Shown here: positions 2,235 through 3,281 of the stretch, one piece after another | Numbering within the stretch: position 1 is the stretch's first letter | Layout of the letters: each line of letters opens with the position of its first letter | Origin: a virus | Virus genome (UHGV): UHGV-0263785 | DNA length: 42,602 nucleotides | Reading direction: 5' to 3' (one strand) | The notes under the pieces: generated by a model | What the model was told of the DNA's origin: nothing | The model's database searches: none | What the model saw: only the letters and a program-made list of their open reading frames with translations | Position numbers and translations under genes: made by a program

Positions 2235-2507
2235 ATTTACTCCAGAGACAGCCGAACCGAAAAACCGTTTTCAGCGAGCGTCAGACTCAGTGTGTTGATA
2301 GTCCAGTCCCGGTCCTCCTCGGTCCCGAAACCTTGAGTTGTGACTTTGCATTCTGCTGTCAGCGACACTAAATCGAGCGTCGCTGGCGTCGTGTACGTCA
2401 TAGAGAACTCTTTTTTAGCTGCACCGCCCTTGAGCCCTGGTGCAGCTTCTTTCGCTGCGTCGAGCGACGGCTCAACTGCCGGCCATTCAATGACAGGATC
2501 GCCGCCA
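2235..2507 (-). pseudogene. Out-of-frame continuation of the gpD-like gene (about 90 further codons open in a shifted frame)
   Basis: My hand translation of the minus strand just past the stop at 2508-2510 gives an open frame to about 2235 (..SGGDPVIEWPAVEPSLDAAKEAAPGLKGGAAKKEFSMTYTTPATLDLVSLTAECKVTTQGFGTEEDRDWTINTLSLTLAENGFSVRLSLE*). Confidence 0.4.
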
Positions 2508-3281
2508 CTACCTTGTCCGCAATTCTTTGATCTGCCCAGTTGCTGTGTCGTGATATTTAATCAGATACGTCGGTTCCGGATTTTCGCCACCGCTACCACT
2601 ATCGCCACTTTGTCCATTTCTCGAATAGCCCCAGCTGGAGTTATCACGACGAGTTAGCGTGTAGTGCTGGAGCGGAGCACCGCTAACAGATTCGCCCGCG
2701 CCGCGCGGCAGGAATATCCAGTACCCGCCCGCGGGTTTACTCACCGCATCGAATCTCGTTGCGAGCCGCGACATCAGGTGCATATCTGACTCGCCGACCT
2801 GATCGAGTTGCGTGATAACATTGTCTGCAAACCGCTTTGATACGCGTGGTTTTAGCCCATTATCGCTCGCTATTGTCGCAACGATATCGCTGACAGTGAC
2901 GTCGCTCCAGGAACGAGTCTTTTTGCTCTGAACTGTCGGAGATCCTTTTGCTGCGTTCATCGGAGCCGCTTTTGCTGTGAAATCAACTACCCGGGGTTCA
3001 CCGCCACTGCTAGCACCGTCAACGATGTATATCCCTTTATCAATTATCTGATTACCGAAACCGAGCCCAATACTGATTTTTACTCCGCGGGCCGGAATTT
3101 TCAGAGTTTCAGAAACTATTGCTACGCGGAGTTCGTCTGTCTGTTTACTGGAGCCGCCGTAATCTGTCAGCGTGATATTGATCAAACCTTTTCTTATTTT
3201 ATCCGTGATGTTTTTATTATCAGCAGATATATAAAAATTAGGTTTCCACGCCTCCACGCCAGTATTTACGTAATCACTCAT
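2508..3281 (-). CDS. Phage tail protein, P2 gpD-like; apparently truncated by a frameshift
   Basis: 257-aa ORF in the terminal position of a tail gene cluster ordered tape measure-U-X-D as in P2-like tails and R-type pyocins; full-length gpD homologues are longer. Confidence 0.6.
   Translation of the reverse strand: MSDYVNTGVEAWKPNFYISADNKNITDKIRKGLINITLTDYGGSSKQTDELRVAIVSETLKIPARGVKISIGLGFGNQIIDKGIYIVDGASSGGEPRVVDFTAKAAPMNAAKGSPTVQSKKTRSWSDVTVSDIVATIASDNGLKPRVSKRFADNVITQLDQVGESDMHLMSRLATRFDAVSKPAGGYWIFLPRGAGESVSGAPLQHYTLTRRDNSSWGYSRNGQSGDSGSGGENPEPTYLIKYHDTATGQIKELRTR

What the first reader, a model, noticed from the sequence alone, without database searches (positions are those of the whole stretch)
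2235..3281. gpD-like tail gene appears split by a frameshift near codon 257
The gpD-like ORF stops at 2508-2510, well short of the usual length for this family, yet an adjacent frame stays open for about 90 more codons to about 2235. An open frame of that length next to a premature stop is unlikely by chance. It points to a frameshift mutation, a sequencing error in a repeat or homopolymer, or possibly programmed frameshifting.
Basis: seen in the sequence. Interest (0 to 1): 0.35.

Follow-up and report, generated by a model that had tools for sequence, protein, structure and literature searches.

The report
Frameshifted tail hub gene, ST131 prophage
One extra A splits the baseplate-hub (gpD-like) tail gene of an otherwise complete E. 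coli ST131 prophage; it is a real mutation inherited by hundreds of sequenced strains, not a sequencing error or programmed frameshift, and it most likely leaves the prophage unable to build tails.

Summary
On the minus strand a 257-codon gpD-like ORF (3281..2511) stops at TAG 2510..2508. The +1 frame then runs 91 more codons (2512..2240) to TAA 2239..2237.

The two pieces are collinear halves of one 347-residue baseplate hub protein (P2 gpD / Mu gp44 / T4 gp27 / VgrG-Pvc8 fold).

The cause is one inserted A at 2513/2514: ACA-AGG-TAG here, ACA-GGT-AGT in intact copies. Of 5426 complete E. coli genomes, 364 carry exactly this allele and 66 carry the exact intact allele. Prophages with either allele sit at the same leuZ/yecA site and differ at 10 positions in 44.4 kb. 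Sampled intact carriers are ST131 fimH22/H35 strains; a sampled frameshift carrier is H30Rx.

All more distant homologues (26-97% identity) are contiguous proteins of about 325-440 residues. The junction has no slippery heptamer, homopolymer or SD-like stimulator.

The truncation falls inside a beta-hairpin and removes a confidently modelled helix and four strands, so loss of hub function and tail assembly is the likely (inferred) result.

Sequencing error and programmed frameshifting are rejected. This is an ordinary, clonally inherited prophage pseudogene of low interest. Separately, the window's portal gene carries a unique 440-bp inversion.

The parts
2511..3281 (-). N-terminal 257 codons of the baseplate hub (gpD-like) gene. 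Codon 257 is AGG (Arg) instead of GGT (Gly), and the premature TAG follows at 2510..2508.
   Evidence: ORF list and translation. PHROG 52 'tail protein', E=1.9e-74, profile 186-417. Weak Pfam Phage_GPD hit at 22 bits, below the 30.1 cutoff. Pyocin R2 hub chain 6u5h_C, E=2e-22.
2513..2514 (-). Site of the 1-bp insertion. The window has AA here and intact alleles have a single A (GGACAAGGTAG versus GGACAGGTAG). Which of the two A's is the extra one cannot be told.
   Evidence: Pairwise alignment with ON470604.1: a single difference in 1101 nt. The same single-base indel, as a +-strand T, distinguishes strain 4/1-1 from SK1144.
2237..2512 (-). C-terminal 91 codons plus TAA of the hub gene, now in the +1 frame relative to the N part.
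   Evidence: Translation. PHROG 52, E=1.3e-13, profile 425-512. Alignment to full-length homologues with near-invariant P271, A276, P299, A309, G317, F318, E322, D323, W326, L335, G339. This region has pLDDT of about 84-95 in the model of the intact homologue.
2237..2401 (-). Leftover 54-aa ATG ORF (MTYTTPATLDL...) within the orphaned C-terminal frame. It is a by-product of the frameshift that gene callers sometimes annotate as a separate protein.
   Evidence: ORF list. It matches phrog_7984 over the full profile (54/54 positions, 'unknown function'). It is called as a 54-aa gene in some assemblies.
3285..3509 (-). Tail protein X (LysM-like gpX), immediately upstream of the hub gene. Context only.
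   Evidence: PGAP annotation of the identical region. PF05489 Phage_tail_X.
3671..4099 (-). gpU-like tail protein. Context only: the U-X-D gene order.
   Evidence: PF06995 Phage_P2_GpU. PGAP 'phage tail protein'.
1306..1430 (.). 125-bp att core (attP junction). The window is a circular permutation of the whole prophage, so the hub gene lies at the prophage end next to yecA in lysogens.
   Evidence: Window 1..1430 matches the int/tRNA-Leu side, and 1306.. matches the yecA side, 40 kb away in strain 4/1-1. The 125 bp are present at both prophage ends.

Best explanation
A single A was inserted after codon 256 of a 347-codon gene. The gene encodes the central baseplate hub of a contractile tail (P2 gpD / Mu gp44 / T4 gp27 / pyocin R2 hub fold). 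It lies at the yecA-proximal end of a 42.6-kb lambdoid-head, P2-type-tail prophage integrated at tRNA-Leu leuZ of E. coli ST131.

The insertion changes Gly257 to Arg and brings a TAG into frame at once. Translation therefore yields a 257-residue fragment that lacks the last 90 residues.

The mutation arose once in this prophage lineage and is inherited vertically with the chromosome. It is seen in H30-type ST131, while fimH22/H35 ST131 and some animal isolates keep the intact allele.

Shown here: the insertion, its population distribution, the homology of both halves, and the hub fold.

Inferred: the truncated protein cannot form the trimeric hub. Tail and baseplate assembly would then not start, and the prophage could at most excise, replicate, lyse and make tail-less heads. 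That would make it a recently inactivated, otherwise intact, defective prophage.
For: The junction differs from ON470604.1 by exactly one A in 1101 nt, and removing it gives a 347-aa ORF.

An 81-nt probe finds 364 genomes with the window allele at 100%. An 80-nt probe finds 66 genomes with the exact intact allele, annotated as full-length 'VgrG/Pvc8 family' protein.

The 44.4-kb region (prophage plus flanks) of 4/1-1 (frameshift) and SK1144 (intact) lies at the same site and differs by 8 SNPs and 2 indels, one of which is this base.

Intact carriers SaT040 and G749 are fimH22 and ZH063 is fimH35. Frameshift carrier uk_P46212 is H30Rx.

Of the 102 hits with E<=1e-5, the full-length ones are about 325-440 aa. 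Most cover more than 90% of the 347-aa query, including its C-terminus. The few much shorter hits are named or look partial, and one is the 257-aa truncation itself, P0009.

The C piece holds near-invariant family residues.

The AlphaFold model of the intact homologue has pLDDT 86.6 and pTM 0.81. Residue 257 lies in the hairpin E251-257/E260-270. The lost part is helix 273-289 and strands 292-299, 312-316, 325-336 and 339-346.

Foldseek aligns the full length to the pyocin R2 hub, Mu gp44 (1wru, 9ki1_G), P1 and T4 hubs, and VgrG/Pvc8 at E of 1e-13 to 1e-20.

From established knowledge, not tested here: P2 gene D and Mu gp44 mutants fail to make tails.
Against: No functional data. I found no paper testing induction or infectivity of this prophage.

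In lysogens such as 4/1-1 the rest of the prophage shows no other annotated lesion, so there is no independent sign of decay.

The window is a circularly permuted (attP) form. If that is biological, excision still occurs.

A hub is needed at only three copies per virion, so very low-level frame restoration could in principle give a few infectious particles.
Confidence: 0.9

Rival explanations
1. Sequencing or assembly error: the true sequence has a single A and the gene is intact.
For: One-base indels are the commonest assembly error. The window carries another oddity, the portal inversion, that looks like an artefact.
Against: The identical allele is in 364 complete genomes from many laboratories, which I presume used varied sequencing platforms. 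The exact 257-aa product is indexed in 12,755 blocks of public assemblies. The site is AA versus A, not a homopolymer. The allele tracks the sampled sublineages: H30Rx versus H22/H35.
Confidence: 0.01
2. Programmed +1 ribosomal frameshift: the ribosome skips one base at ACA-A-GGU or AGG-UAG to make full-length hub as a regulated product.
For: AGG is a rare E. coli codon and is followed directly by a stop, a situation known to promote +1 shifts (prfB-type and 'hungry codon' shifts; from knowledge). Skipping the A after ACA would reproduce the wild-type sequence ...ELRTGSGG... exactly.
Against: There is no slippery heptamer, homopolymer or SD-like stimulator near the site. By my base-pairing reasoning, tRNA-Thr cannot re-pair ACA to CAA and tRNA-Arg(CCU) re-pairs poorly from AGG to GGU. 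From knowledge, UAG-U is a strong termination context. The arrangement is not conserved: sister prophages at 99.98% identity and all homologues down to 26% identity have one contiguous ORF. Programmed shifts are conserved features; this is a private, recent allele.
Confidence: 0.02
3. Leaky pseudogene: the mutation is real and not 'programmed', but spontaneous +1 errors at the rare AGG/stop give enough full-length hub (3 copies per virion) for a low yield of infectious particles.
For: From knowledge, the hub is required at three copies per virion and a rare AGG next to a stop may pause ribosomes. The rest of the prophage is intact in lysogens. The window is an excised-circle permutation.
Against: There is no favourable re-pairing at the site (reasoning above). 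There is no experimental evidence. In the genomes whose context I examined the frameshift allele sits at the yecA/leuZ locus, which fits vertical inheritance only. The integrase would target that site in any case, so this point is weak.
Confidence: 0.06
4. Functional split gene: the 257-aa N fragment and a separately translated C fragment (54-aa ORF from ATG 2401) assemble into a working hub.
For: A 54-aa ORF with an ATG exists in the C-terminal frame and is sometimes annotated (phrog_7984).
Against: The first start codon in that frame is 37 codons downstream of the break. Residues 257-293, including conserved P271 and A276 and the whole helix 273-289, would be missing from both fragments. Only a weak GAG lies upstream of the ATG. 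No homologue is naturally split.
Confidence: 0.01

Closest known systems
Phage P2 gpD / 'late control gene D protein' (Pfam PF05954 Phage_GPD), the P2-type baseplate hub
   Same: Same position at the end of the tail operon after the tape measure, gpU and (here) gpX. About 40-43% identity over 92-100% of the query to proteins named 'late control protein D'. Same hub fold.
   Different: The intact relative is shorter (347 aa, against my recollection of 387 aa for P2 gpD) and lacks the basic C-terminal tail seen in the 360-399-aa homologues named 'late control protein D'. A direct Pfam scan reaches only 22-24 bits, below the 30.1 gathering score. In this window the gene is broken at codon 257.
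R2 pyocin hub protein (PDB 6u5h) and phage Mu gp44 (1wru, 9ki1)
   Same: The only PDB sequence match is the R2 pyocin hub (E=2e-22). Foldseek TM-scores, normalised by query and by target, are about 0.61-0.67 and 0.62-0.72 over about 350-375 aligned columns. From knowledge, the pyocin cluster has the same U-X-D order.
   Different: Sequence identity is only 13-21% in the structural alignments. The element here is a full temperate phage with head, lysis, replication and integrase genes, not a tailocin.
Frameshift-inactivated structural genes of cryptic or defective prophages (a general phenomenon)
   Same: A single-base indel truncates an essential virion gene, is fixed in a bacterial clone and is inherited vertically.
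   Different: The event is very recent. The sister prophage with the intact gene differs at only 10 of 44,453 aligned positions, and no other lesion is annotated in the strain examined.
Programmed frameshifts of tail genes (P2 E/E+E', lambda G/GT; prfB +1)
   Same: Two overlapping frames in a tail operon that together encode one protein.
   Different: Those are conserved across relatives and use defined slippery sites. Here there is no slippery site and all relatives are unsplit. The real E/E' candidate of this phage lies elsewhere, at about 5845 to 5722.

Membership tests
Baseplate hub proteins of contractile tails (gp27 / gpD / gp44 / VgrG N-terminal / Pvc8 fold) | Hub fold over the whole chain, recognisable against solved hubs | tested here: met
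   Tested on the intact 97%-identical homologue P0001. The AF2 model has pLDDT 86.6. The top hits listed are hub, VgrG and related baseplate-tip proteins, including R2 pyocin, Mu, P1, T4, MuSo2, PVC, AFP and T6SS VgrG; 58 matches have E<=0.001, and the best reach about 1e-13 to 1e-20.
Baseplate hub proteins of contractile tails (gp27 / gpD / gp44 / VgrG N-terminal / Pvc8 fold) | One contiguous polypeptide containing both N- and C-terminal parts of the fold | tested here: not met
   In the window the ORF ends after 257 of 347 codons and the remaining 91 codons are in the +1 frame. The window's copy is therefore a disrupted member, i.e. a pseudogene.
Pfam PF05954 Phage_GPD | Score at or above the gathering threshold (30.1 bits) | tested here: inconclusive
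   Direct hmmscan gives 22.4 bits for the 257-aa piece and 23.8 bits for the restored 347 aa, both below the cutoff. The database's precomputed annotation lists PF05954 for nearly all homologues, including P0001 and P0009, and marks it 'weak' on the 257-aa product.
PHROG 52 (phage tail protein family) | Significant, collinear match of both pieces to one profile | tested here: met
   N piece E=1.9e-74 at profile 186-417. C piece E=1.3e-13 at 425-512. Restored protein E=2.7e-94 at 186-512.
P2-type tail gene cluster | Synteny: sheath, tube, chaperone E, tape measure, gpU, (gpX), gpD | tested here: met
   PGAP and Pfam annotations of the identical region: sheath, tube (PF04985), TAC_7 (PF10109), 546-aa tape measure candidate, GpU (PF06995), tail X (PF05489), then D.
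Programmed ribosomal frameshift sites | Slippery sequence with or without a stimulator at the frame junction | tested here: not met
   The 59-nt overlap region has no X XXY YYZ motif and no homopolymer of 4 or more, and the flanking 200 nt have no SD-like element.
Programmed ribosomal frameshift sites | Conservation of the two-frame arrangement among homologues | tested here: not met
   Homologues from 26% to 97% identity are single ORFs. Prophages at 99.98% and at about 91% identity have an intact 1044-nt gene.
Programmed ribosomal frameshift sites | Measured frameshifting efficiency above background | not testable with these tools
   This needs a reporter assay or proteomics.

The most novel reading that the evidence does not exclude
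The prophage is not dead. Pausing at the rare AGG codon next to UAG would allow occasional +1 read-through that recreates wild-type hub. Because only three hub copies are needed per virion, H30 ST131 strains would still release a low titre of infectious or transducing particles. Alternatively, the truncation was selected in the pandemic H30 lineage because it disarms a costly prophage while keeping its cargo and immunity genes.
Probability: 0.07. Interest if true: 0.4.

Novelty: already known. Interest (0 to 1): 0.12.

Why it matters
Mostly as annotation hygiene and strain biology. The 257-aa product (WP_001296153.1) is annotated as an ordinary protein in the ST131 genomes examined. The 54-aa leftover ORF matches a 54-position 'unknown function' PHROG end to end, although both are fragments of one broken hub gene. 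The allele looks like a candidate marker separating H30 ST131 from its H22/H35 relatives in the few strains whose type I could check. It predicts that this leuZ prophage, which looks intact to prophage-finding software, cannot make tailed virions. It reveals no new mechanism.

Tried and rejected
1. Sequencing error: rejected by allele counts in 5426 complete genomes and by public assemblies.

2. Programmed or transcriptional slippage: I searched the overlap region for slippery heptamers, homopolymers and SD-like elements and found none. The predicted downstream stem-loops were not compared with shuffled controls, so I give them no weight.

3. Re-initiation or split gene: the only start codon in the C frame is 37 codons past the break.

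4. IMG/VR scan with a pattern accepting either allele: three contigs, all with the intact 31-nt form, so the frameshift allele and the window itself were not found there.

5. Literature: the vB_EcoM-... 'phage' records come from a study of phages located in the genomes of clinical isolates. I read only the abstract, and the ON470604.1 record includes host yecA at one end, so I take them to be genome-derived prophage regions rather than isolated phages. Searches for ST131 prophage induction or leuZ prophage papers found nothing on this element. The EC958 genome paper states only that the EC958 prophages are prevalent in nearly all clade C strains.

6. Direct Pfam and NCBIfam scans gave only sub-threshold hits, so family assignment rests on PHROGs, homologue names and structure.

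7. I did not work out which EC958 'Phi' number this prophage has, nor the allele in H30S (clade C0) strains such as CD306.

Full report
**What is in the sequence**

On the minus strand, an ATG ORF runs from 3281 to a TAG at 2510..2508 and encodes 257 aa. Translating the three minus-strand frames shows that the +1 frame is open from about 2560. From 2512 it reads GSGGDPVIEWPAVEPSLDAAKEAAPGLKGGAAKKEFSMTYTTPATLDLVSLTAECKVTTQGFGTEEDRDWTINTLSLTLAENGFSVRLSLE, ending at TAA 2239..2237. An open run of this length has a chance expectation of about 1% per frame, and the window-wide distribution of stop-to-stop runs agrees.

**Both pieces belong to one gene**

- The N piece matches PHROG 52 (tail protein) at profile positions 186-417 (E=1.9e-74). 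The C piece matches the same profile at 425-512 (E=1.3e-13). The two joined match 186-512 (E=2.7e-94).
- A protein search with the joined sequence returned 102 homologues. The full-length ones are single polypeptides: 347-354 aa at 48-97% identity, about 350-400 aa at 38-44% identity (several named 'late control protein D' or 'contractile injection system protein, VgrG/Pvc8 family'), and about 325-440 aa for the more distant ones. Most cover more than 90% of the query, including its C-terminus. A few shorter hits are named or look partial.
- The other short entry is P0009, the 257-aa truncation itself.
- In the alignment the orphaned C piece carries near-invariant family residues: P271, A276, P299, A309, G317, F318, E322, D323, W326, L335 and G339.

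**The lesion**

A phage-collection record (ON470604.1), apparently a prophage region taken from a clinical isolate's genome, is identical over 1101 nt except for one base. The window reads GGACAAGGTAG where that record reads GGACAGGTAG, and the record's gene is an intact 1044-nt, 347-codon ORF. The window therefore has one extra A at 2513/2514. It converts ...CGG ACA GGT AGT GGC... (R T G S G) into ...CGG ACA AGG TAG (R T R stop).

**It is not a sequencing error**

- An 81-nt probe across the junction finds the window allele at 100% in 364 of 5426 complete E. coli genomes. The corresponding 80-nt intact probe finds 66 genomes at 100%, where the gene is annotated as a full-length VgrG/Pvc8-family protein.
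- The exact 257-aa product is indexed in 12,755 blocks of the public assembly collection. In all five places shown it lies next to yecA-tyrP.
- The region of strain 4/1-1 (frameshift) and that of SK1144 (intact) sit at the same site and differ at 10 positions in 44,453 aligned bases: 8 SNPs and 2 indels. One of the indels is this base.
- A more distant related prophage, about 91% identical across the 81-nt junction probe and at a different locus, also has the intact 1044-nt gene.
- Published typing puts the intact carriers SaT040 and G749 at fimH22 and ZH063 at fimH35, and the frameshift carrier uk_P46212 at H30Rx.
- The simplest history is one insertion event in the ancestor of (part of) the H30 lineage, inherited vertically since. 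I checked lineage for only these few strains.

**It is not a programmed frameshift**

Restoring the frame needs a +1 shift. The 59-nt region where both frames are open has no X XXY YYZ motif and no run of 4 or more identical bases, and the surrounding 200 nt contain no SD-like element. By base-pairing reasoning, tRNA-Thr cannot re-pair from ACA to CAA, and tRNA-Arg(CCU) re-pairs poorly from AGG to GGU. From my own knowledge, UAG followed by U is an efficient terminator. The two-frame layout is also private to this allele and absent from sister and distant homologues, whereas programmed shifts are conserved. A rare AGG next to a stop could raise spontaneous +1 errors slightly, and skipping the A after ACA would recreate the wild-type protein. 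I keep that only as a low-probability 'leaky' variant.

**What the protein is, and what the truncation removes**

- The only solved structure found by sequence is the R2 pyocin hub (6u5h_C, E=2e-22).
- An AlphaFold model of the intact 97%-identical homologue, built from a 66-sequence alignment, is confident: pLDDT 86.6, pTM 0.81.
- Foldseek aligns its whole length to baseplate hubs and spikes: CIS baseplates, R2 pyocin hub, phage P1, MuSo2, Mu gp44 (1wru, 9ki1_G), T4 gp27, VgrG and Pvc8, with E down to about 1e-20.
- Residue 257 lies inside the hairpin formed by strands 251-257 and 260-270. The lost part comprises helix 273-289 and strands 292-299, 312-316, 325-336 and 339-346, all modelled at pLDDT of about 84-95.
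- A separately translated C fragment could start only at ATG 2401. Residues 257-293 would then be absent from both fragments.
- I therefore infer, but did not show, that the hub trimer cannot form. From knowledge of P2 gene D and Mu gp44, tail assembly would then fail.

**Context**

The window is a circular permutation of the entire prophage. Positions 1..1430 match the DUF4224/integrase/tRNA-Leu end, and positions from 1306 onward match the yecA-proximal end 40 kb away in lysogens. The shared 125 bp are the att core. ARAGORN finds no complete tRNA in the window, as expected for attP. In lysogens the element is annotated with the following genes and shows no other flagged lesion:

- terminase, portal, S49 protease, decoration and major capsid proteins;
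- head-tail joining proteins;
- baseplate V/W/J/I;
- a 394-aa 'phage tail protein' and a 129-aa hypothetical protein, which I read as fibre and fibre chaperone;
- sheath, tube, chaperone, a 546-aa 'hypothetical protein' that I read as the tape measure, then U, X and D;
- holins, an endolysin-like protein, Q, a replicative helicase, repressor-type regulators and the integrase.

This looks like a young pseudogene in an otherwise complete prophage.

**Comparison with what is known, and verdict**

The gene is a hub of the gpD/gp44/gp27 class. It meets the fold, PHROG and synteny tests, while Pfam PF05954 is sub-threshold on direct scan. The window's copy fails the 'single contiguous polypeptide' criterion because of a recent 1-bp insertion. 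That is an ordinary kind of event, namely clonal inactivation of a prophage structural gene. Its practical value is limited to three points:

- correcting annotation of the 257-aa 'hypothetical protein' and the 54-aa fragment that matches phrog_7984;
- predicting that this prophage is tail-defective;
- offering a possible lineage marker.

Interest is low.

**Seen in passing**

The window's portal gene is disrupted by a 440-bp inverted segment with a duplicated 21-nt inverted repeat at its ends. None of the 5426 complete genomes shows this arrangement, so it is either unique to the source or an assembly or amplification chimera.

Noticed in passing
window 18048-18508 (portal gene, about 17312-18886, minus strand): A 440-bp segment (18069-18508) is inverted relative to strain 4/1-1. 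It is bounded by a perfect 21-nt inverted repeat (18048-18068 / 18488-18508) that exists only once in the reference, and about 26 nt of the reference are missing. This splits the portal ORF into 252-aa and 150-aa pieces. None of the 5426 complete E. coli genomes has this arrangement (best coverage 51%, in 2 pieces). It may be an assembly or amplification chimera, or a unique second lesion.
   Followed up: partly
window 1-1430 and 1306-42602 (att core 1306-1430): The window is a circular permutation of the whole 42.6-kb prophage, with an attP-type junction containing the 125-bp repeat that includes the 3' part of tRNA-Leu (leuZ). In lysogens the two ends are 40 kb apart, between yecA and leuZ. 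The source is therefore an excised or circularised form, or a computational circle.
   Followed up: partly
window 2237-2401 (minus strand): The 54-aa leftover ORF of the broken hub gene matches PHROG phrog_7984 ('unknown function') end to end. That profile is as long as this fragment (54 positions), so it may have been built from it; I did not check the family's members.
   Followed up: partly
window about 5722-5880 (minus strand), between gpE-like chaperone (5845..6126) and the tape measure candidate (4096..5736): The -1 frame relative to the gpE-like ORF stays open from just before its stop to just past the tape-measure start (...IVILIPFIAKKLAIPPDTQMDLPYRVFNFYVNEVMKIDGYFSKL*). This is the layout expected for the conserved E/E+E' programmed -1 frameshift of P2-type tails. 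There is no canonical heptamer; 'GTA AAG' (A AAG) is a possible slip site.
   Followed up: partly
window 1651-2070 (minus strand): A 139-aa ORF whose N-terminus (…LALVGCATKP…) looks to me like a lipoprotein signal sits between the hub gene and the att site, outside the tail operon. It is annotated only as a hypothetical protein, and its position resembles that of a cargo ('moron') gene.
   Followed up: no
window 28149-28226 and 31572-31649: A 78-bp direct repeat (about 90% identical) brackets a roughly 3.3-kb stretch. That stretch holds a 232-aa hypothetical gene and a 307-aa LprI-family (lysozyme inhibitor) gene on opposite strands. It may be the footprint of an inserted cargo module.
   Followed up: no
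L003 position 29521 (about window 29960), intergenic: The only other indel between the frameshift-carrying prophage (4/1-1) and the intact one (SK1144) is a 1-bp difference in an unannotated stretch between the 232-aa gene and the LprI-family gene.
   Followed up: no
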